DNA of 64,000 bases from the sequence record MT446392.1; one strand, given 5' to 3'. This stretch comes from Escherichia virus TH15. The first letter of the stretch is position 1, and every line of letters starts with the position of its first letter. The notes under the pieces are model-generated. The model was not told where the DNA came from and made no database searches. It saw only the letters and a program-made list of their open reading frames with translations. Positions 943 through 21,510 of this stretch are shown here, piece by piece. Both the position numbers and the translations under genes were made by a program.

Positions 943-1016
943 GGCCCTGTAGCTGGACGGTCAAGCGAGCGACTCATAATCGCTGGATGGTGGTTCGATT
1001 CCACCCAGGGCCACCA
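943..1016 (+). tRNA. tRNA, anticodon CAT (Met or lysidine-type Ile)
   Basis: Cloverleaf: acceptor GGCCCTG/CAGGGCC, anticodon stem AGCGA/TCGCT loop CTCATAA, T-arm GGTGG-TTCGATT-CCACC, encoded CCA. Confidence 0.85.
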
Positions 1017-1150
1017 AACTTATTTTAAATTATCATGGCGATAGGTATTGTAGATGCGGTTCGATTCCGTCCGGGGTAAGTGCCCTAGCATGCTTGGAGC
1101 ATGAGTGACTTAATATTGGTGGTTCGAGTCCACCCCGCTATGAACAAACA

Positions 1151-1226
1151 CGAGGCATAGCTCAGAAGGAAGAGCAAGGACCTTCTAAGTCCTAGGTCGT
1201 AGGTTCGATTCCTACTGTCTCGACCA
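1151..1226 (+). tRNA. tRNA-Arg, anticodon TCT
   Basis: Acceptor CGAGGCA/TGTCTCG, D-arm AGCTCAG, anticodon stem AGGAC/GTCCT loop CTTCTAA, T-arm GTAGG-TTCGATT-CCTAC, CCA. Confidence 0.85.
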
Positions 1227-4338: not shown

Positions 4339-4893
4339 ATGACTTCATACGATAATCTTATATCAAATGTAGAATGGTTTGGCGGCAGTGGTCTTGCCAC
4401 TGAAACTAATACAGTTCTTTATAGAATCCGTGGTGACCTAGGTTATTCCAATGATTTCTTAAGAAGAACAACTAGTCGGGGCGATACTACCAAATTACCT
4501 TTTATTTTTGCTTTGGCTGAAGACCTTTCTTTCGCAGATGCCTTGGAAATTATTGACGTGAATCTGGGCATTCAACGAGTGGAATTCGCTGGACTACGTT
4601 ATTCAGTGTATGCATTAAACGACCCTAGCGATTATAGACAACTTATTGATGCAGACGATGATTATCATTTAGTGTGTTATTTGATGTTAGAAAATGGTGA
4701 CCACTTTGGAATGGTTGACCGCCGTCCAACTTACTCTGATATTAAAAATTATGATAAAGATGAGCTTACTATTTTGGCTGCTGAGTATACATCAGAGAGT
4801 CGTAAGCAACAACGGAAGCTTAATCGTTTTATTACTGAATGTCGTGAATATGCTAAAGGGGTTCAAAATGCGAACGCTATATCTGCCAAGTAA
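4339..4893 (+). CDS. hypothetical protein, C-terminal FITECR tail
   Basis: Track start 4321 is TTG; ATG 4339 after GGAGAGGAG SD. Confidence 0.55.
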   Translation: MTSYDNLISNVEWFGGSGLATETNTVLYRIRGDLGYSNDFLRRTTSRGDTTKLPFIFALAEDLSFADALEIIDVNLGIQRVEFAGLRYSVYALNDPSDYRQLIDADDDYHLVCYLMLENGDHFGMVDRRPTYSDIKNYDKDELTILAAEYTSESRKQQRKLNRFITECREYAKGVQNANAISAK

Positions 4894-5227
4894 ACCAGAA
4901 AAATTTGTATACGCGGACAAGATTGATAAAGACCTTATGCCTCCATTTGGAGCTTTGTCCATGTGCATCGTTGGGGTTATAATGATGGTGCTTTGTGGGG
5001 ATATGGATATCATTAGTGTCGGAGTCGCCTGGACACTAATAATCGCAACTCCTTTTATTACAGTCCTGAGTATGATTTTGATAAATGTGTGGCATCAAAA
5101 TCATATGAATAAAGGATATCGTGGACGAGTTAAAGAGTGGGAACAAAAATGTGTTTCCCTACAAAAAGAGCACAAAATTAAATGTGCAGAAGAATTTATC
5201 AAGGAGGTTCGCAATGGAACGGCCTAG
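4868..5227 (+). CDS. hypothetical membrane protein, C-terminal FIKEV tail
   Basis: ATG 4868 after AAAGGGG SD; hydrophobic helices; overlaps upstream gene end. Confidence 0.5.
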   Translation: MRTLYLPSKPEKFVYADKIDKDLMPPFGALSMCIVGVIMMVLCGDMDIISVGVAWTLIIATPFITVLSMILINVWHQNHMNKGYRGRVKEWEQKCVSLQKEHKIKCAEEFIKEVRNGTA

Positions 5228-5567
5228 TCTTGCACTACATGTTTATCAATTGGCTGAATATGATATTGGTGCCAATTTATTATTAGGGATTGTTACCGCT
5301 ATGCTCGGGGGCTTGGTTGGCCTGGTAATGACCACAGTTATGGCTGCAATCGAGGGAGTCATGCCTATTGAGATGGGCTTCTTTATGATAATTGCTCCGG
5401 CTGTTGTAGCCTATTTTATCCCGGTTGTGTATGATATCTGTCACACAAACACCTTGAATGCTCCCATCCGTAAGAGATACGCTTTGGCAATGGCTGAGTA
5501 TAATAAGTTCCTGGACAAAACAAAACGTAATGAACTTGAAACCTTTATTAAGGAATGTAAATCATGA
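5214..5567 (+). CDS. hypothetical membrane protein, C-terminal FIKECK tail
   Basis: ATG 5214 after AAGGAGG SD; hydrophobic helices. Confidence 0.55.
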   Translation: MERPSLALHVYQLAEYDIGANLLLGIVTAMLGGLVGLVMTTVMAAIEGVMPIEMGFFMIIAPAVVAYFIPVVYDICHTNTLNAPIRKRYALAMAEYNKFLDKTKRNELETFIKECKS

Positions 5568-5854
5568 ATAAAATTGAAATCGCTATCCCTAAGTATTATG
5601 ATGAGAAATCTGCAGAAAAAGCTATCTATTCTCTTCTAAATAAGACTTCTGAAATTGAAACACATTGTGAAGAAATCGCTGATGAATATGGCATTGAATT
5701 CAGCACCGGCGATTACGGCACAGGTCGTACATACCACCCAGTCGGTTATGAATGCTCTGAATGGTTTACCCATCATATTGAAGCCAATGGCGGTCGGGTT
5801 GAAAATGGTGTTGTTACCGTTGGTGCTTGGGTCTCCTCTTCTGAGATGTGTTAA
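5564..5854 (+). CDS. small protein, WVSSSxxC-tail family member 1
   Basis: 96 aa; ends GAWVSSSEMC; ATGA overlap with upstream gene. Confidence 0.55.
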   Translation: MNKIEIAIPKYYDEKSAEKAIYSLLNKTSEIETHCEEIADEYGIEFSTGDYGTGRTYHPVGYECSEWFTHHIEANGGRVENGVVTVGAWVSSSEMC

Positions 5855-5863
5855 GGAAATGGT

Positions 5864-6145
5864 ATGATGAACGATTACAGTAAAAATAAAGAACTGGCCA
5901 ACGCAGTAAACGAAATCCATAAAGCTATTCGGCGCGCCGAGGAAATTGCAGACAAATATGAGACTCATTTTAATATATACCCTGCTCGCGGTATGGGCGG
6001 TGACTATTATTCTCCTGGCGCCTTGAAAGCTGACCTTGCTCATTGGGAAAACTACGGTGAAGCCCAATACGCCATTGTTAACCAACATGACTACACAACG
6101 GACCTTGAAAAAGGTGGTTGGGTTTCCTCTTCTTCTGAATGTTAA
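5864..6145 (+). CDS. small protein, WVSSSxxC-tail family member 2
   Basis: 93 aa; ends GGWVSSSSEC; TAAGGAA stop-SD junction. Confidence 0.55.
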   Translation: MMNDYSKNKELANAVNEIHKAIRRAEEIADKYETHFNIYPARGMGGDYYSPGALKADLAHWENYGEAQYAIVNQHDYTTDLEKGGWVSSSSEC

Positions 6146-6153
6146 GGAATTAT

Positions 6154-6351
6154 ATGTCCCGTGAATTAGATTGTGCAATCCGTACTGCTGCGGCAGCTAT
6201 TGAAAACGTTATCCAGATTTGCAAAGAAGAACGCGAAGAAGCTGATATCTATATTGACGGTCAGCGTAATCTGGAACAACATATTACGCTTTATAATGGT
6301 TGTATTACTATTAGTGGTACCTCTTGGGTGTCCTCCTCTTACGAATGCTAA
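6154..6351 (+). CDS. small protein, WVSSSxxC-tail family member 3
   Basis: ATG 6154 after TAAGGAA; ends TSWVSSSYEC. Confidence 0.55.
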   Translation: MSRELDCAIRTAAAAIENVIQICKEEREEADIYIDGQRNLEQHITLYNGCITISGTSWVSSSYEC

Positions 6352-6359
6352 GGAAATAA

Positions 6360-6587
6360 ATGACTACTAAAACTGTTAAAGAAATTGAAGACCAAATCCG
6401 TGCACTAATCTGTGAAGGTGAACAGCTGGCCGATAAAACTGGTGAATACTTTCATGTATATGCTGACAGTCTTCAACGATATATTCCTGCGGGCTGTCCA
6501 GAATATGAAGAATATGACTGGATTCGCGGTGATTATGGTATCCCAGAAGGTAAAGGTTTCTGGTACACCTCCTCTATGTCTTGCTAA
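6360..6587 (+). CDS. small protein, WxSSxxC-tail family member 4
   Basis: 75 aa; ends GFWYTSSMSC; TAAGGAA junction. Confidence 0.55.
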   Translation: MTTKTVKEIEDQIRALICEGEQLADKTGEYFHVYADSLQRYIPAGCPEYEEYDWIRGDYGIPEGKGFWYTSSMSC

Positions 6588-6596
6588 GGAATAAAA

Positions 6597-6821
6597 ATGT
6601 CTGATATTAATGAATTAGAAAAAGCAGCTCTTGAACTGGCTGCGCTGTATAAGAAAGTTAAAGATATGGCTTCTGCTCAAGATTTCGGTATTGAGCTCGA
6701 TGATTATGATGGCGAAGTTCGTCTTGAAGACTGGTTGAACAGCTCTTGTTATGGTGAAGAAGCTGGTCGAACCTTCGTTGCTCACCCGGATGGTAAAATC
6801 TGGTACCCGAGCAGCTGCTAA
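6597..6821 (+). CDS. small protein, WxSSC-tail family member 5
   Basis: 74 aa; ends KIWYPSSC; TAAGGAA junction. Confidence 0.55.
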   Translation: MSDINELEKAALELAALYKKVKDMASAQDFGIELDDYDGEVRLEDWLNSSCYGEEAGRTFVAHPDGKIWYPSSC

Positions 6822-6865: not shown

Positions 6866-6895
6866 GTATACAAGTCTAAAGAAACATAGTATCAT
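6866..6895 (+). promoter_or_regulatory. T4-type early promoter
   Basis: -35 GTATACA, 17-nt spacer, -10 TATCAT. Confidence 0.5.
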
Positions 6896-6923: not shown

Positions 6924-7154
6924 ATGTGGTATTACGCCCCAATGGCTGATGAGCCTGTGAAAATTAGTCGCGCTAAGTTTACAAAGATTTACGGCCTCGT
7001 TTATAAGAAGTCTGATTACGGTGTTCGTTTTGAAGATGCACACTGTATCAACGACCCTTATAATGAAGACCTCTATGGCAAATTGGTTCCTATCGTTAAG
7101 GGGTCCGCCTCTGAGATGATAGATGAATCTAATATCTCTGCTGCTGAAATTTAA
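6924..7154 (+). CDS. hypothetical protein
   Basis: 76-aa ORF after TGAGGAAA SD. Confidence 0.5.
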   Translation: MWYYAPMADEPVKISRAKFTKIYGLVYKKSDYGVRFEDAHCINDPYNEDLYGKLVPIVKGSASEMIDESNISAAEI

Positions 7155-7172
7155 GTTACTGAGGAAAATATT

Positions 7173-8132
7173 ATGATGTTAGTTATTGGCTCTCGCGCAT
7201 TACATAACGCCGGTCTGATTGAAAGTAAGAAAATTGAAAACTCTGATTGGGATTTTATCGCTGACCAGGGTTCCTGGAACAGCTTTAAAACCCAGATGAT
7301 GGGGCAGCATGTTCATGTGGATAACCCAGATGTGCAAGCTTTTAAATGTATGCACAATGGTAAAGAAACTTATTTTGAAGCGTACATCGTCCGCGCACTG
7401 ACAAGTGTTCGTGAGTTGACTGATGAGTTGCAAGAGGAAGATTTTACTTCCAGTTATCGTCTGCTCAAATATGCAAAGGCAAATATTCAGAAAGACCGTC
7501 TATCTGGTTTTTACTGGGCGACCCCTGATATTTGTCTGGCAATTAAATTGTCTCATCGTTACCTGAAGAACAATCCATTCTTCCTGAAGACAATGAGCCA
7601 TATTAATTACCTTCGTAATAAGGGTGTTGTTCTTAATGATGAACTACAAAAAATCATGCAACAACGACAGGCAGAAACACTGTCATATAGTCACCCTAAA
7701 CTAGACGTGGGCAAGAAAACTTTCTTTAATGATACAATCTATACCCTTGACCATGACTCCATCCACGAGGCCGTGGCGCTTGCTGATAAGCCTGCATATA
7801 AGTTCTATATGAAGGATGATTCAGAAGTCATGACCTCACGTGAAAAATTTGAAGCACTCCCTGATGTTATTAAACTGGCAGGGGTTTATGAAGAAGCATG
7901 TGTGCTCGCTCTGGAGCGTTCGCAGGTTCCTAACGAGTTTAGTATCCCGGCCAGTCATAGCTTCCATATGGCTCTGGAAAAAGTCTGCACCTCCATTACT
8001 TCTGGATGGTTTCGTGAGTATGCCTGGGAACATTACCAGGATGTGGTTAATATGTACAACACCCTGGGTCGCGAAGACTATGTTAAACGTTTCAAGGCTA
8101 ACCAGCATTTAATTCGTCCTTTTTCAAAATAA
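7173..8132 (+). CDS. hypothetical protein with possible nucleotidyltransferase-fold motif
   Basis: 319 aa; N-terminal IGSRALH...SDWDF resembles GS...DxD. Confidence 0.6.
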   Translation: MMLVIGSRALHNAGLIESKKIENSDWDFIADQGSWNSFKTQMMGQHVHVDNPDVQAFKCMHNGKETYFEAYIVRALTSVRELTDELQEEDFTSSYRLLKYAKANIQKDRLSGFYWATPDICLAIKLSHRYLKNNPFFLKTMSHINYLRNKGVVLNDELQKIMQQRQAETLSYSHPKLDVGKKTFFNDTIYTLDHDSIHEAVALADKPAYKFYMKDDSEVMTSREKFEALPDVIKLAGVYEEACVLALERSQVPNEFSIPASHSFHMALEKVCTSITSGWFREYAWEHYQDVVNMYNTLGREDYVKRFKANQHLIRPFSK

Positions 8133-8134
8133 GT

Positions 8135-8164
8135 GTGTACAACCAAATGGGGCTATGACATAAT
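8135..8164 (+). promoter_or_regulatory. T4-type early promoter
   Basis: -35 GTGTACA, 17-nt spacer, -10 CATAAT. Confidence 0.6.
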
Positions 8165-8191
8165 GGTCCCACAATCAATGAGGAAAATATT

Positions 8192-8878
8192 ATGAACGGT
8201 CCTAAAACTTTTAATAGTCAAGCTCGTGCAGTTGGTGGTTTTGCACATAACGTACAAAATGACCAAATCAAAAATGAACCAATGTTCTTTAACTGTGATT
8301 TGAGTTTTGCTTGGGATAATGGTGGTCCAATCACTCGTAGCTTTATTGCCAATCTCCCAATTGATTGGACTAATCAACATGTTGTGTTTGATTCACGTGC
8401 GCATATGTTAATGCCAGGTTGGTATCCAGCTATCCCTGGCTATCATCATGATGATGTTCCTCGTCCACCCATTCCAACAGGACAACATTTTATTACTGCA
8501 GGACAACCTGATTATGACAATCCTCGCTATTTGTCTGAACACATTCTTGGTCTTGTTAACGCTGATGTGTGCCCTACCCATTTTGCTACAGGCGAAGCCA
8601 CCTTTAGTGAAATCCCAGAAGGTGAACTGATTTATCGCCAATGGCATAAAGAAGTTCTGGCTAAAATTGAATCAGGTGAATTAGAGCAATGGGAAGCTCC
8701 TGACCGCACACTCCTGCAGTTTAATTGTCATACCTGGCATACTGGTTCCCAGACAGTGCGCAATGGCTGGCGTTGGTTTGGTCGTGTATCTCGTAACACT
8801 GACCGTGTTAAAAATATTACCAATGAAATCCGCGTTAATGCCCAAGTATATCTGGAATTCCCTATGGAGGGATGGTAA
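8192..8878 (+). CDS. hypothetical protein
   Basis: 228-aa ORF after TGAGGAAAA SD. Confidence 0.6.
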   Translation: MNGPKTFNSQARAVGGFAHNVQNDQIKNEPMFFNCDLSFAWDNGGPITRSFIANLPIDWTNQHVVFDSRAHMLMPGWYPAIPGYHHDDVPRPPIPTGQHFITAGQPDYDNPRYLSEHILGLVNADVCPTHFATGEATFSEIPEGELIYRQWHKEVLAKIESGELEQWEAPDRTLLQFNCHTWHTGSQTVRNGWRWFGRVSRNTDRVKNITNEIRVNAQVYLEFPMEGW

Positions 8879-10148: not shown

Positions 10149-10904
10149 ATGAATTATCTAAAAATATATGAATCTTTAATAGTATCTGCTATTAAAAGAC
10201 CTCTTACACAAGGATACACCGAAAAACATCATATTTTACCGAAATCGATGGGTGGTAATGATTCTATTGATAATTTAGTTACCCTTACCGCCCGTGAACA
10301 TTTTATTGCACACTTATTATTGGCAAGAATTTTTAAGAATCGCGAAATGTGGTCCGCTGCATATATGATGGCTTCAACAAGTCTAACTAACTCGGATAGA
10401 CATAGATGCTCGTCACATTTATATGAATTATTGCGTAAACAAGCGTCGGTATATAATTCAGGTGAAAATTCTCCAAATTGGGGAATAAAACGTTCTGAAG
10501 AAACACGATTAAAAATGTCAATTTCAAAAATGGGTATCAGGAATCCAATGTACGGTATTCCACAATGTTTGGAACACTCTCATAAAATTAGCCTTGGTGT
10601 TACCGAAGCTTTTAAAAATCCAGAAATGAAAGAACGCCACCGTCAAAGTGTTTCTGGAGAGAATAATGGGTTTTATGGAAAAAAACATTCCGAAAAAAGT
10701 TTGGAAAAACAGCGGAATACAAAACGGAAAGGATTTCCTTGGGACAATTATTTGGAATTGTACCCAATTTGGGTTTCATTAAATTGCCCCAAGCATCCAA
10801 CATTCACAAATGAACTTGTTAAATTGGGATACCCCAAAAAGAAGCTTGTTCGAATAGTGGAAGAGTTTAAAAATGAATATATTCGAAATGCTACGCATAG
10901 ATGA
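10149..10904 (+). CDS. HNH homing endonuclease
   Basis: HNH motif [31 protein letters not shown]; inserted between nudE and e. Confidence 0.8.
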
Positions 10905-20050: not shown

Positions 20051-20503
20051 ATGATTATCAATACAAACTCTTGGCACGCTAAATTACACGACCGTTTTTA
20101 TGACCGTCATTCTCGACCACACTCTTTGTGTGCTTACTTCTGGAAAATTGTATGGGCCTGTTTTGTTTGTGCAGGTTTTATTGGCAGTACAGTCTTCTGC
20201 TTAACTGTTGCAGGTGCTGGTGTATTGGAGCAGTTCTTTGTATTAAGTATTCCGGTTGGTTTAGGGCTAGGGTTTATTTTAGGACTGGCTACAATGGCTA
20301 TTATTCTGGCGGTAGTATTTGGTTTAATGTATGGTCTAATGAATTTATGGTCCTGGTATGATTTACGTAAAGAAGAAAAAGAATGGGAACGAATTAAAGC
20401 TGGGCGTGAAGGCCGAGAAACTAAAGAAAACGTTTTCATTCAATATATCAAAGCTCGTAAATCTAAGATGTGCCCGGTAATCCATTTTGAGGCGAAGAAA
20501 TGA
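20051..20503 (+). CDS. hypothetical multi-pass membrane protein
   Basis: 150 aa with several hydrophobic helices. Confidence 0.55.
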   Translation: MIINTNSWHAKLHDRFYDRHSRPHSLCAYFWKIVWACFVCAGFIGSTVFCLTVAGAGVLEQFFVLSIPVGLGLGFILGLATMAIILAVVFGLMYGLMNLWSWYDLRKEEKEWERIKAGREGRETKENVFIQYIKARKSKMCPVIHFEAKK

Positions 20504-21510
20504 GAACAGTTATGAAGGGCTATTTTGGCTCACATCTTTATGGAACAAGTACTCCGGAATCTGATGTTGATTTTAAAGAAATCTTTGTTCCACACCCACG
20601 TGACATTCTGTTAGGTACGGCTATGAACCATACCAACTTGAACACGAATAATACGGCATCCAAAAACACTAAAGACGATGTTGACCACGAGCTTTATAGT
20701 CTGAAATATTTCTTTAAACTGGCGGCTGAAGGCGAAACTGTTGCTCTGGACATGATTCACACTCCGGCTAACCTGGTAGTCAAATCCGATTTACCAGATG
20801 TATGGAAGTTTATCCAAGACAACCGTTCACGGTTCTATACGACCAACATGAAAGCATATTTGGGGTACGTCCGTAAGCAAGCTTCAAAATATGGTGTTAA
20901 AGGTTCTAGACTGGCTGCTTTACGTGGTGTACTGGCAATTGTTAACCAGATTCCTGAACAGTGGGTTGACTACCAAGAAGATGGTTCGACTAAACAACGT
21001 CGCACTAAAGTTGAAGATATTAAGCATCGTCTCCCAGAGAACGAATTCTGTGAATGGGTATTCCATAACCATGAGAAAACTGGCCCTCAAACGTTTTATA
21101 CTGTTCTCGGTCGCAAATACCAAACTACTTTGTCATTAATCGAGCTTAAGCAATCTCTGAATAAACTTGATGCTGAATATGGTGAACGTGCTCGTAAGGC
21201 TGAAGCTAACGAAGGTATTGACTGGAAAGCTCTGAGCCACGCTTATCGTGCTGGATATCAGTTGAAGGAAATTTATATGACCGGTGACCTTCAATATCCT
21301 TTACGAACAGCCCCATTTATCCTTGAAATCAAACAAGGGCTACATGCTTTTAAAGATGTACAGGCTGAACTTGAAGCTATCGTTGATGAAGTCGAAACTA
21401 ATGCCATCTGGGCTGCTAAGAACGGTATGCCCGATAAGGTAGACATGAAGTTCTGGGACAAGTTTGTTGAAGAGGTATATCTTGACAACCACAATTCCTA
21501 TTATTGTTAA
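20500..21510 (+). CDS. putative nucleotidyltransferase-fold protein
   Basis: N-terminal GSHLYGTSTPESDVDF fits GS-x(9-13)-DxD nucleotidyltransferase motif; ATGA overlap with membrane gene. Confidence 0.65.
   Translation: MRTVMKGYFGSHLYGTSTPESDVDFKEIFVPHPRDILLGTAMNHTNLNTNNTASKNTKDDVDHELYSLKYFFKLAAEGETVALDMIHTPANLVVKSDLPDVWKFIQDNRSRFYTTNMKAYLGYVRKQASKYGVKGSRLAALRGVLAIVNQIPEQWVDYQEDGSTKQRRTKVEDIKHRLPENEFCEWVFHNHEKTGPQTFYTVLGRKYQTTLSLIELKQSLNKLDAEYGERARKAEANEGIDWKALSHAYRAGYQLKEIYMTGDLQYPLRTAPFILEIKQGLHAFKDVQAELEAIVDEVETNAIWAAKNGMPDKVDMKFWDKFVEEVYLDNHNSYYC

What the first reader, a model, noticed from the sequence alone, without database searches (positions are those of the whole stretch)
7173..8878. 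Second candidate nucleotidyltransferase-fold protein and adjacent uncharacterised gene
ORF 7173..8132 has an N-terminal IGSRALHNAGLIESKKIENSDWDF segment resembling a GS...DxD motif with a slightly long spacer. The following 228-aa ORF 8192..8878 is His/Trp-rich with no recognisable motif. Both have their own early promoter (6866, 8135). The assignment is tentative.
Basis: inference. Interest (0 to 1): 0.4.

Follow-up and report, generated by a model that had tools for sequence, protein, structure and literature searches.

The report
Phage nucleotidyltransferase with tagged mini-protein partners
Two early genes of a T4-like phage are predicted to be a nucleotide-transferring enzyme and an iron/2-oxoglutarate oxygenase, and the first is almost always preceded by a row of tiny proteins ending in the same Trp…Ser-Ser…Cys tail, which suggests an enzyme–partner module I found no description of.

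Summary
The window is a VR7-like T4-type coliphage. Both ORFs are real and conserved.

ORF1 (7173-8132) is Pfam DUF7277+DUF7275. A confident AlphaFold model has a Pol-beta nucleotidyltransferase core. Its best PDB matches are MenT1, MenT3/TglT, ANT(2'') and LnuA. G6-S7, D25-x-D27 and E69 are invariant.

ORF1 and ORF2 are not an obligate pair. ORF2 occurs alone in about 50 other phage contigs, sometimes fused in an operon with NAMPT.

ORF1's constant companion is upstream and outside the stated coordinates: 1-6 tandem 60-125 aa proteins ending W-x-x-S-S-(x-x)-Cys-COOH. The window has five, at 5564-6821. They are present in 72 of 80 ORF1 loci and in none of 57 loci lacking ORF1.

Best guess (inferred): ORF1 nucleotidylates or is regulated by these tagged mini-proteins. 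Substrates of both enzymes are unknown.

The parts
5564..5854 (+). tail-tagged mini-protein 1 (96 aa, ends ...GAWVSSSEMC)
   Evidence: ORF; phrog_899, E 2e-22; member of the iterated HMM family
5864..6145 (+). tail-tagged mini-protein 2 (93 aa, ends ...GGWVSSSSEC)
6139..6351 (+). tail-tagged mini-protein 3 (70 aa, ends ...TSWVSSSYEC)
   Evidence: phrog_4882, E 3.8e-36; HMM family
6360..6587 (+). tail-tagged mini-protein 4 (75 aa, ends ...GFWYTSSMSC)
6597..6821 (+). tail-tagged mini-protein 5 (74 aa, ends ...KIWYPSSC; also has an internal DWLNSSC copy of the motif)
6867..6895 (+). promoter-like site (TATACA-17-TATCAT) upstream of the 76-aa ORF / ORF1 unit
   Evidence: not above chance on its own; promoter-like sites at the same position in relatives, some resembling the T4 early consensus as I recall it
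6924..7154 (+). 76-aa ORF (phrog_3723, unknown function); 18 bp before ORF1; present in only about 12 of 80 ORF1 loci
7173..8132 (+). ORF1, 319 aa: predicted Pol-beta-fold nucleotidyltransferase (DUF7277 + DUF7275)
7176..7475 (+). ORF1 N-terminal NTase core (aa 2-101): G6-S7, D25-x-D27, E69
   Evidence: invariant in 53 sequences; strands 2-5, 26-31 and 64-73
7530..8087 (+). ORF1 C-terminal all-helical domain DUF7275 (aa 120-305). The invariant set includes K125, H128, H174, D193, H194, D195, H198, E240, E241, C243, E248, R249 and C272
   Evidence: no convincing PDB fold match for this domain
8136..8164 (+). promoter-like site (TGTACA-17-CATAAT, TG-extended) in the 59-bp ORF1-ORF2 gap
   Evidence: conserved in the closest relatives, and a different GTTTAC/GTTTGC...TAAGAT site occupies the spot in others
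8192..8878 (+). ORF2, 228 aa: predicted Fe(II)/2-oxoglutarate dioxygenase (DSBH fold); H85-x-D87, H183, R194

Best explanation
The two ORFs are two separate enzymes of the phage's early accessory region.

ORF1 is very probably an active nucleotidyltransferase of the DNA-polymerase-beta superfamily. Its N-terminal ~100 residues form the minimal NTase core, with G6-S7, D25-x-D27 and E69 positioned to bind Mg-NTP. A virus-specific helical domain (DUF7275), rich in invariant Lys/His/Asp/Glu, probably completes the active site and binds the acceptor. This much is shown at fold and conservation level.

ORF1 belongs to a conserved module with the tandem mini-genes upstream of it. The window has five, at 5564-6821. 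These are 60-125 aa proteins with an N-terminal helix and an invariant C-terminal tag, W-x-x-S-S-(x-x)-Cys, where Cys is the last residue. The gene linkage is shown.

The mechanism I think most likely is inferred, at about 35-40%. The tag is the recognition and acceptor site, and ORF1 transfers a nucleotide (an NMP) onto a tail Ser hydroxyl or the terminal Cys of each paralogue. That would be one enzyme serving several tagged substrates. From my own knowledge, GlnE, GlnD, DrrA and the MNT antitoxin nucleotidylate proteins in this way.

ORF2 is an Fe(II)/2-oxoglutarate-dependent dioxygenase. H85, D87 and H183 would bind iron, and R194 would bind the 2OG C5 carboxylate. It acts independently of ORF1 on an unknown, probably universal, substrate. 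Its adjacency to NAMPT/NMNAT genes in other phages hints at nucleotide or NAD-related chemistry; that part is inferred and weak.
For: ORF1 fold:
- Pfam DUF7277 and DUF7275.
- AlphaFold pLDDT 91.1, pTM 0.85, with the beta1-helix-beta2...beta5 order.
- G6, S7, D25, D27 and E69 are invariant in 53 sequences down to 44% identity and are retained in ~30%-identity homologues.

Module:
- 72 of 80 ORF1 loci have 1-6 tagged mini-genes: 214 copies upstream, 3 downstream, none on the other strand.
- Across 80 ORF2-centred loci, 23 have both ORF1 and mini-genes, 57 have neither, and none is discordant.
- When ORF1 and ORF2 lie far apart in one genome, the mini-genes stay with ORF1 (L113/L114 against L020/L024).
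- The next most conserved neighbour occurs in only 14 of 53 distant loci.
- 312 of 325 mini-proteins end in Cys, against 2.9% of background ORFs.
- All six Ser codons and both Cys codons are used, so selection is on the protein.
- An exhaustive profile search found 69 cluster representatives. All but one are stand-alone proteins whose match reaches (or nearly reaches) their own C-terminus; the exception is an unrelated repeat protein.
- Four of five independent mini-protein seeds are followed directly by an ORF1 homologue.

ORF2:
- pLDDT 90.1.
- H85, D87, H183 and R194 are invariant in the family, and the matching H92-x-D94 / H164 / R175 are invariant in a sister branch. The C-terminal halves of the two branches, including H183 and R194, align at hhalign probability 99.6%.
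Against: No enzymatic data exist for any member. The mini-protein link is genomic only, with no fusion, complex model or covariation analysis behind it. The most distant ORF1 homologues (Gordonia Toniann, Limnohabitans DC31, DSS3_VP1, Vibrio K412; about 30% identity) have no tagged mini-gene within 4 kb, so the partnership is not universal to the superfamily. One tagged mini-gene (L175) overlaps an RlaP-family NTase instead of ORF1. Promoter-like sites between the array and ORF1 mean the genes need not be co-transcribed. ORF1's closest structural neighbours modify tRNA or antibiotics, not proteins. Neither ORF reaches any curated NTase, AbiEii, PhyH or 2OG Pfam model, even at E up to 10 across all family members.
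Confidence: 0.55

Rival explanations
1. ORF1 is a MenT/AbiEii-like RNA nucleotidyltransferase acting on tRNA 3' ends, either blocking host tRNAs or repairing and extending tRNA CCA ends. The upstream mini-proteins would be antitoxin-like inhibitors or regulators that plug its active site, as the 68-aa MenA1 does for MenT1.
Against: No DUF1814/AbiEii Pfam match in any of 53 family members. One to six diversified paralogues sharing a common C-terminal tag looks more like a substrate or cargo family than a 1:1 antitoxin. PADLOC finds nothing. The family is virus-restricted, with only 5 MAG contigs among 185,579 species genomes, unlike toxin-antitoxin modules.
Confidence: 0.2
2. The mini-gene array and ORF1 are only syntenic neighbours in a plastic early region. 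ORF1 nucleotidylates a small molecule or nucleic acid, and the mini-proteins are independent host-takeover effectors.
For: Promoter-like sites separate the array from ORF1. The gap between the last mini-gene and ORF1 is variable, with a median of 350 bp and a maximum of 3.4 kb. The most distant ORF1 homologues lack tagged genes nearby. The structural neighbours ANT(2'') and LnuA act on small molecules.
Against: Co-occurrence with no discordant locus among 80 holds across T4-like phages, ~150-kb phages, 350-370-kb jumbo phages and short metagenomic contigs. No other neighbour in those loci is conserved to that degree. The link also holds when starting from the mini-protein side.
Confidence: 0.15
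3. ORF1 and ORF2 form a two-enzyme pathway, the pairing implied by the first reader. For example, NTase activation could be followed by oxidation of the same substrate, possibly the Cys tail.
For: ORF1 lies 10 bp to 2 kb upstream of ORF2 in 23 T4-like loci. A divergent branch of the ORF2 superfamily sits beside ORF1 homologues in two unrelated contigs, DSS3_VP1 and L177.
Against: 57 of 80 ORF2 loci have no ORF1, and most ORF1 loci outside T4-likes have no ORF2. Genes are inserted between the two in relatives; VR7 has an endonuclease there. The sister oxygenase branch has its own strict partner, DUF7352, with no DUF7275 nearby.
Confidence: 0.1
4. ORF2 works in NAD+/nucleotide metabolism, hydroxylating or otherwise oxidising a pyridine-nucleotide-related metabolite or an NAD-derived immune signal.
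For: ORF2 homologues start 4 bp inside the stop of a NAMPT gene in L035, L062 and L073, and NAMPT lies within 4 kb in 7 of 80 loci. NMNAT-Nudix and NAD kinase genes are in the same loci. In the window the Nudix gene nudE lies about 0.8 kb downstream.
Against: NadV is common in medium and large phages, at 22-33% (PMC9503650), so some co-location is expected. About 43 other non-T4 loci show no NAD genes nearby. The window has no NAMPT. No chemistry is established.
Confidence: 0.15

Closest known systems
MenT toxins / AbiEii (DUF1814 nucleotidyltransferases of MenAT/AbiE toxin-antitoxin systems)
   Different: No DUF1814 sequence signature. ORF1 has a different and much more conserved C-terminal domain (DUF7275). 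The family is virus-restricted. It has 1-6 tagged paralogous partners rather than one antitoxin. No evidence of toxicity or tRNA targeting.
Protein-nucleotidylating Pol-beta NTases (GlnE, GlnD, DrrA/SidM, MNT of HEPN-MNT); recalled from my own knowledge, not tested here
   Same: The same catalytic superfamily, transferring NMP to a hydroxyl of a small protein partner. This is the proposed logic for ORF1 and the Ser-Ser tails.
   Different: No sequence or specific structural match was found here. The acceptor in the known cases is Tyr, not a C-terminal Ser/Cys tag. The comparison is purely an analogy.
Antibiotic nucleotidyltransferases ANT(2'')-Ia and LnuA
   Different: They are about 160-180 aa enzymes acting on small molecules and lack the 190-aa DUF7275 domain. 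A phage has no obvious need for antibiotic resistance.
RlaP-family NTase (PF10127), the window's other NTase at 20500..21510
   Same: Same superfamily fold class. Both are phage early genes. One tagged mini-gene in a metagenomic contig overlaps an RlaP gene.
   Different: No detectable sequence similarity to ORF1 (BLASTP E > 4). They fall in different Pfam and PHROG families.
PhyH-clade Fe(II)/2OG dioxygenases (EasH, proline and ectoine hydroxylases, human PhyH)
   Different: Only 9-14% identity. No PhyH or 2OG Pfam hit in any of 41 members. ORF2 is shorter (228 aa), has a 40-residue insert carrying the HxD, and is unusually conserved, at 49-99% identity across unrelated phages.
RiPP precursor arrays (for example Nif11-leader prochlorosins processed by one ProcM); recalled from my own knowledge
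   Same: Several tandem diversified small ORFs share a conserved segment and sit next to a single enzyme. The Ser and Cys in the conserved tail are the residues used for lanthionine chemistry.
   Different: Here the conserved part is the C-terminal tail, not a leader. No LanB/C/M, protease or exporter is present. The Nif11 hit is E 0.14, below threshold. The proteins are 60-125 aa.

Membership tests
Pol-beta superfamily nucleotidyltransferase fold | hG[GS] motif at the junction of the first strand and the following helix | tested here: met
   V-I-G6-S7 is invariant in 53 sequences. Strand 2-5 is followed by helix 6-12 in the model.
Pol-beta superfamily nucleotidyltransferase fold | [DE]h[DE]h on the second strand, 9-13 residues after G[GS] | tested here: inconclusive
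   D25-W-D27-F is invariant and sits at the start of strand 26-31. The spacer is 17 residues here and varies in length among homologues, longer than the canonical 9-13.
Pol-beta superfamily nucleotidyltransferase fold | third carboxylate on the neighbouring strand | tested here: met
   E69 is invariant and lies in strand 64-73. Its 3-D proximity to D25/D27 could not be measured because no coordinates were available.
Pol-beta superfamily nucleotidyltransferase fold | overall alpha-beta-alpha sandwich superposable on known NTases | tested here: met
Pol-beta superfamily nucleotidyltransferase fold | Mg-dependent nucleotidyl transfer activity | not testable with these tools
   Needs biochemistry.
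MenT / AbiEii (DUF1814, PF08843) | match to the DUF1814 profile with its four signature motifs | tested here: not met
   No hit for ORF1 at E up to 1 or for any of 53 family members at E up to 10. Motif IV was not identifiable.
MenT / AbiEii (DUF1814, PF08843) | toxicity through tRNA 3'-end extension, neutralised by a cognate antitoxin | not testable with these tools
   Only an architectural resemblance (small upstream genes) was seen.
Pfam DUF7277 + DUF7275 | scores above the gathering thresholds for both domains | tested here: met
   96.4 and 255.9 bits against a cut-off of 27. All 53 aligned homologues match both domains.
RlaP (PF10127) | sequence match to RlaP, or to the window's RlaP-like protein | tested here: not met
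   No Pfam hit for ORF1. BLASTP against 20500..21510 gives E > 4.
Fe(II)/2-oxoglutarate dioxygenase (DSBH) | double-stranded beta-helix core | tested here: met
Fe(II)/2-oxoglutarate dioxygenase (DSBH) | HxD/E...H iron-binding triad | tested here: met
   H85-x-D87 and H183 are invariant in 41 sequences. The corresponding H92-x-D94 and H164 are invariant in sister branch A4. The hhalign alignment (99.6%) covers only the C-terminal half, so H183 is aligned by profile but the HxD correspondence rests on motif comparison. The geometry was not inspected.
Fe(II)/2-oxoglutarate dioxygenase (DSBH) | basic residue about 10 residues after the distal His that binds the 2OG C5 carboxylate | tested here: met
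   R194 is at H183+11 and R175 is at H164+11 in A4; both are invariant. The same spacing in human PhyH (H264/R275) is from my own recollection.
Fe(II)/2-oxoglutarate dioxygenase (DSBH) | match to a curated PhyH or 2OG-FeII_Oxy profile | tested here: not met
   No Pfam or NCBIfam hit for ORF2 or for any of 41 members at E up to 10. Only source-given names exist: 'Phytanoyl-CoA dioxygenase family' and '2OG-Fe(II) oxygenase'.
Fe(II)/2-oxoglutarate dioxygenase (DSBH) | 2OG-dependent oxidation of a substrate | not testable with these tools
   Needs biochemistry.
RiPP / lanthipeptide biosynthetic cluster | recognised dehydratase/cyclase (LanB/C/M/KC/L), leader peptidase or exporter next to the precursors | tested here: not met
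   None appeared among the Pfam hits of the window genes or the recurrent neighbours. The Nif11 hit of one mini-protein is E 0.14.

The most novel reading that the evidence does not exclude
ORF1 and the tagged mini-proteins are a virus-specific post-translational maturation system. A Pol-beta-fold NTase recognises the W-x-x-S-S-(x-x)-Cys-COOH tag and nucleotidylates a tail Ser. The modification either stays as a stable nucleotide mark or is eliminated to give dehydroalanine, which the terminal Cys then closes into a thioether ring. That would be lanthionine-type chemistry driven by an NTase rather than a kinase or glutamyl-tRNA. The result would be a family of modified phage effector mini-proteins, present from T4-like to jumbo phages.
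Probability: 0.12. Interest if true: 0.85.

Novelty: new variant of a known kind. Interest (0 to 1): 0.55.

Why it matters
Hundreds of sequenced phages carry these genes as 'hypothetical protein'. They include therapeutic-type T4-like coliphages, Acinetobacter, Aeromonas, Klebsiella and Pseudomonas phages, and jumbo phages.

Showing that DUF7277/DUF7275 is an NTase permanently accompanied by an array of mini-proteins with a common Trp…Ser-Ser…Cys tail turns three sets of unknown genes into one testable module with a concrete assay: mass change of the tail upon co-expression. If the enzyme modifies the tails, it would be a new kind of viral protein-maturation or effector system and a new acceptor type for Pol-beta NTases. 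If the mini-proteins instead inhibit a MenT-like enzyme, it would be a phage-borne toxin-antitoxin-like regulator of tRNA.

Separately, ORF2 defines an uncurated, extremely conserved branch of Fe/2OG dioxygenases, spread across unrelated phages and sometimes operon-fused to NAD-salvage genes. That gives a lead on the old question of what phage 2OG oxygenases do.

Tried and rejected
- **PDB sequence searches:** single-sequence and profile searches for ORF1, ORF2 and the A4 branch found nothing significant.
- **NCBIfam and PADLOC:** no hits for either ORF.
- **Metal-site idea for C243/C272:** weakened, because neither Cys is kept in the Toniann and K412 homologues and only C272 is kept in DC31 and DSS3_VP1.
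- **Possible remote ORF1 relatives:** two ~300-aa neighbours of ORF2 in NAMPT loci were tested and rejected (hhalign probability below 1%).
- **ORF1 against the 20500..21510 NTase:** unrelated at sequence level.
- **Nucleotide-level explanation of the tail motif:** rejected by synonymous codon diversity.
- **Domain fusions of the mini-protein:** none found.
- **Bacterial homologues of ORF1:** only 5 MAG contigs.
- **Literature searches:** DUF and PHROG identifiers, phage RiPP/NTase terms and NAD-salvage/dioxygenase terms returned nothing on these families.
- **Tools unavailable or failed:** the AFDB fold library was unavailable. The tool's alignment-versus-alignment comparison failed and was redone locally.
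Full report
**Setting.** The window is a T4-like myovirus of the VR7 group (Straboviridae, Gaprivervirus/Dhakavirus). The 6.8-9.5 kb stretch is 92-94% identical to phages TH40, VR7 and VR26. The finding lies in the plastic early region between the e.3/e.4 genes and e.2-nudE-e. All genes there are on the + strand.

**Check of the observation.** ORF 7173..8132 (319 aa) and ORF 8192..8878 (228 aa) are exactly as described.
- They correspond to VR7ORF136c (JS98 ORF122c) and VR7ORF134c (RB69 ORF132c), both annotated as hypothetical.
- ORF1 starts MMLVIGSRALHNAGLIESKKIENSDWDF.
- ORF2 has 4.8% His and 3.9% Trp, against 2.0% and 1.5% in the window background.
- Sigma-70-like sites lie at 6867-6895 and 8136-8164. 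The region holds 9 such sites against 8.5 expected by chance, so they prove nothing alone.
- Relatives carry promoter-like sites at the same two positions. Some resemble what I recall of the T4 early-promoter consensus, for example GTTTACA-N17-TATAAT upstream of ORF1 in L091 and GTTTAC...TAAGAT upstream of ORF2 in L008. Separate early promoters are therefore plausible.
- The 6867 site precedes a 76-aa ORF (6924..7154) that ends 18 bp before ORF1.

**ORF1 is an NTase-fold protein.**
- Pfam places it in two domains of unknown function: DUF7277 (aa 2-101, E 1.7e-27) and DUF7275 (aa 120-305, E 3.1e-76). The PHROG is phrog_2141, of unknown function.
- In 53 homologues down to 44% identity the N-terminal invariant residues are G6, S7, D25, D27 and E69. 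The C-terminal domain is even more conserved. Its invariant set includes K125, H128, H174, D193, H194, D195, H198, E240, E241, C243, E248, R249 and C272.
- An AlphaFold2 model built on this alignment is confident (pLDDT 91.1, pTM 0.85). Its element order is strand 2-5, helix 6-12, strand 26-31, helix 32-41, strands 45-47, 54-61 and 64-73, followed by about twelve helices.
- G-S therefore sits at the first strand-helix junction, DxD on the second strand and E69 on a neighbouring strand. That is the Pol-beta NTase arrangement.
- The helical DUF7275 domain has no convincing structural relative.
- At sequence level ORF1 is outside every curated NTase family. There is no hit to DUF1814/AbiEii, NTP_transf_2, RlaP or HD models for ORF1 or any of 53 relatives, even at E up to 10.
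- ORF1 is unrelated in sequence to the window's other NTase at 20500..21510, which is RlaP family.
A few GenBank records of Acinetobacter phages already call homologues 'putative nucleotidyltransferase'.

**Distribution of ORF1.**
- It matches 731 of 50,697 phage records. These include T4-like phages of Escherichia, Klebsiella, Enterobacter, Acinetobacter and Aeromonas, ~150-kb coliphages, and Pseudomonas, Vibrio, Gordonia and Streptomyces phages.
- It also occurs on 350-370-kb jumbo-phage contigs.
- Structure comparison extends the family to DUF7275 proteins of giant viruses, Sylvanvirus and Satyrvirus.
- Among one genome each of 185,579 bacterial and archaeal species there are only five hits, all on MAG contigs. 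The family is essentially viral.

**ORF2 is an Fe(II)/2-oxoglutarate dioxygenase.**
- It has no Pfam, NCBIfam or PADLOC hit. Its PHROG is phrog_1843, of unknown function.
- It belongs to a large family of 1202 clusters with very high conservation: mean column identity is 73% in 41 sequences from very different phages, with 68 invariant positions.
- The model is confident (pLDDT 90.1, pTM 0.88) and rich in beta strands.
- The invariant residues are H85, H86, D87, D88, H183 and the block G192-W-R194-W-F-G-R198-V-S200.
- A second, divergent branch of the same superfamily was found by chance next to ORF1 homologues in phage DSS3_VP1 and contig L177. One source names a member of that branch '2OG-Fe(II) oxygenase'.
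- A profile of that branch aligns to the C-terminal half of the ORF2 profile with hhalign probability 99.6% and E 5.6e-24. Its invariant residues are H92-x-D94, H164 and R175. The profile alignment pairs H164 with H183 and R175 with R194; the PG[WY]H-x-D motifs pair H92-x-D94 with H85-x-D87.
- The shared set is therefore H85-x-D87 ... H183 ... R194. The Arg lies 11 residues after the distal His, which is the spacing I recall for human PhyH.
- The claim of 'no recognisable motif' is thus wrong. The substrate is unknown.

**ORF1 and ORF2 are not an obligate pair.**
- In 80 viral loci centred on ORF2 homologues, an ORF1 homologue lies within 4 kb in only 23. All 23 are large T4-like genomes, with a gap that varies from 10 bp to 2 kb.
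- In VR7 an extra endonuclease-like gene sits between the two.
- About 50 smaller, non-T4 contigs carry ORF2 (49-72% identity) without ORF1.
- No neighbour of ORF2 is widely conserved there, with one recurrent exception. In L035, L062 and L073 the ORF2 homologue starts 4 bp inside the stop of a NAMPT gene, and NAMPT is within 4 kb in 7 of 80 loci.
- NMNAT-Nudix genes (L056, L073) and an NAD kinase (L079) lie in the same loci.
- NadV is present in 22-33% of medium and jumbo phages (PMC9503650), so this is a lead and not proof.
- The sister oxygenase branch has a different strict partner. In 4 of 4 contexts a ~115-aa DUF7352 protein overlaps its start by 8-14 bp, with no DUF7275 nearby.

**What ORF1 is really linked to.** In 80 viral loci centred on ORF1 homologues, the most conserved neighbour by far is a family of small proteins, phrog_899/phrog_4882, with no Pfam family.
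- An iterated HMM finds them in 72 of the 80 loci, in 1-6 tandem copies. There are 214 copies upstream of ORF1, 3 downstream and none on the opposite strand. The median gap to ORF1 is 350 bp.
- The window has five, directly upstream: 5564-5854, 5864-6145, 6139-6351, 6360-6587 and 6597-6821. It has none elsewhere in its 64 kb.
- The proteins are 60-125 aa. They have an N-terminal helix of about 35 residues ending A-E-x-L-A-D-E-x-G, often a Y-G-x-G-x-T-Y-Y-P-x-G segment, a variable middle and an invariant C-terminus.
- Among 145 distinct 3' ends, 104 have W-x-x-S-S-x-x-C and 30 have W-x-x-S-S-C, with Cys as the last residue.
- 312 of 325 members end in Cys, against 2.9% of other small ORFs in the same DNA.
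- All six Ser codons, both Cys codons and two stop codons are used, so the constraint is on the protein and not on a DNA or RNA element.
- Across the 80 ORF2-centred loci, 23 have both ORF1 and tagged genes, 57 have neither and none is discordant.
- When ORF1 is far from ORF2 in the same genome, the tagged genes are with ORF1 (L113/L114 against L020/L024).
- The next most conserved neighbour, a metallophosphatase, occurs in only 14 of 53 distant loci. Others are SIR2 (8), a SLOG/DprA-like protein (6) and a putative methyltransferase-like protein with no family assignment (9).
- An exhaustive profile search of 1.84 billion cluster representatives with the five window paralogues found 69 proteins. 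All but one are stand-alone, 69-143 aa, with the match running to (or within a few residues of) their C-terminus and no fusions. The exception (P0261, 536 aa) is an unrelated repeat protein.
- I then started from five of these independent seeds. Four contigs show the array followed directly by an ORF1 homologue:
  - L173 has a 13-bp gap to a DUF7277+DUF7275 gene.
  - L172 has four tagged genes, then MLVVGSRAL...SDFDII.
  - L174 has two clearly tagged genes plus a third, weaker copy, then an ORF1-like N-terminus.
  - L177 has five, three ending in Cys, then ORF1.
- The fifth seed (L175) overlaps the end of an RlaP-family NTase instead.
- Limits: the four most distant ORF1 homologues (about 30% identity) have small upstream genes without the tag. 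Xanthomonas phage X1 has a tagged gene just downstream.

**How it most likely works.**
- Shown: the fold, the conserved catalytic residues, and the gene linkage.
- Inferred: a set of diversified mini-proteins shares one strictly conserved, strictly C-terminal tag, and always sits next to a single conserved enzyme. That pattern is what one expects of one enzyme with many tagged substrates or clients.
- Pol-beta NTases that nucleotidylate protein hydroxyls are well known (GlnE, GlnD, DrrA, MNT; my own knowledge). My preferred model is therefore that ORF1 binds the tag and transfers an NMP to a tail Ser or to the terminal Cys. The DUF7275 His/Asp/Glu cluster would form the acceptor site. I give this about 35-40%.
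- The main rival, at about 20%, follows the closest structures. MenT toxins extend tRNA 3' ends and are blocked by small antitoxins such as the 68-aa MenA1 (PMC10435456). In that reading the mini-proteins would be inhibitors. The multiplicity of paralogues, the absence of the DUF1814 signature and the viral restriction argue against it.
- Pure synteny without functional coupling is about 15%.
- ORF2 is best read as an independent dioxygenase. Its extreme conservation suggests a universal host metabolite or macromolecule as substrate.
- A role for ORF2 on the Cys tails is conceivable but unsupported, because most ORF1-plus-array modules lack ORF2.

**Novelty.**
- The families exist in databases only as DUFs, PHROGs or hypothetical proteins. 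Literature searches found nothing on them.
- 2OG and PhyH-like genes of unknown role are long known in T4-like cyanophages (PMC3037559).
- What is new here:
  - the structural placement of DUF7277/DUF7275 next to the MenT, ANT and Lnu NTases;
  - the definition of an uncurated dioxygenase superfamily with two branches;
  - above all, the ORF1-plus-tagged-mini-protein module.
- It is a new variant of known kinds (NTase, 2OG oxygenase), not a new category.
- The mechanism is untested, so interest is moderate to good rather than high.

Noticed in passing
window 6597-6821: The fifth mini-protein carries the tag twice: an internal ...EDWLNSSC followed by YGEE..., and the terminal ...KIWYPSSC. Its whole subfamily (the '...SCYGEG...W..SSC' type) shows this pattern in other phages.
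   Followed up: partly
window 8133-8191 versus L001 5269-5919 (VR7): VR7 and VR26 have an extra 651-bp gene, annotated 'restriction endonuclease', inserted between ORF1 and ORF2. The window lacks it. Other relatives have 0.3-2 kb of different small ORFs there, so this intergenic spot is an insertion hot spot.
   Followed up: partly
window 20500-21510; L175 614-1941: The window's RlaP-family NTase itself ends in ...NSYYC. In metagenomic contig L175 a tagged mini-gene overlaps the stop of an RlaP-family NTase, with no ORF1 in the 4.7-kb contig. This is a possible second NTase family using the same kind of partner.
   Followed up: partly
L035, L042, L056, L062, L073, L079, L063; also L164 and L166: NAD-salvage genes (NAMPT, NMNAT-Nudix, NAD kinase, PRPP-synthetase-like) cluster next to ORF2 homologues. 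In DSS3_VP1 and Vibrio phage K412 they lie next to distant ORF1 homologues.
   Followed up: partly
L178-L181, around position 4660-5660: The sister branch of the ORF2 superfamily forms a strict two-gene cassette with a ~115-aa DUF7352 (PF24043) protein, with an 8-14-bp overlap, in 4 of 4 contexts. One of these is a prophage-like region of a bacterial contig.
   Followed up: partly
window 10149-10904: A 251-aa ORF with an HNH-like motif ([10 protein letters not shown]...[10 protein letters not shown]) follows nudE. In VR7, nudE is followed directly by the lysozyme gene e, so this looks like an inserted homing endonuclease.
   Followed up: no
window 7155-7175 and 8174-8194; same positions in relatives: ORF1 and ORF2 share an almost identical translation-initiation region, (A/C)TGAGGAAAATATTATG. 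It is conserved in front of both genes in many relatives even where the upstream DNA differs.
   Followed up: no
proteins P0051, P0055, P0057, P0094: ORF2 homologues at 70-72% identity are encoded on ~108-113-kb Klebsiella contigs in NCBI assemblies, possibly phage-plasmids.
   Followed up: no
window 943-1226: Two tRNA genes, tRNA-Met (CAT) and tRNA-Arg (TCT), lie at the start of the window.
   Followed up: no
BFVD hits A0A3G5AJ90 and A0A3G5AE53: DUF7275 proteins of 508 and 571 aa occur in the giant viruses Sylvanvirus and Satyrvirus, so the ORF1 fold family spans phages and eukaryotic giant viruses.
   Followed up: no
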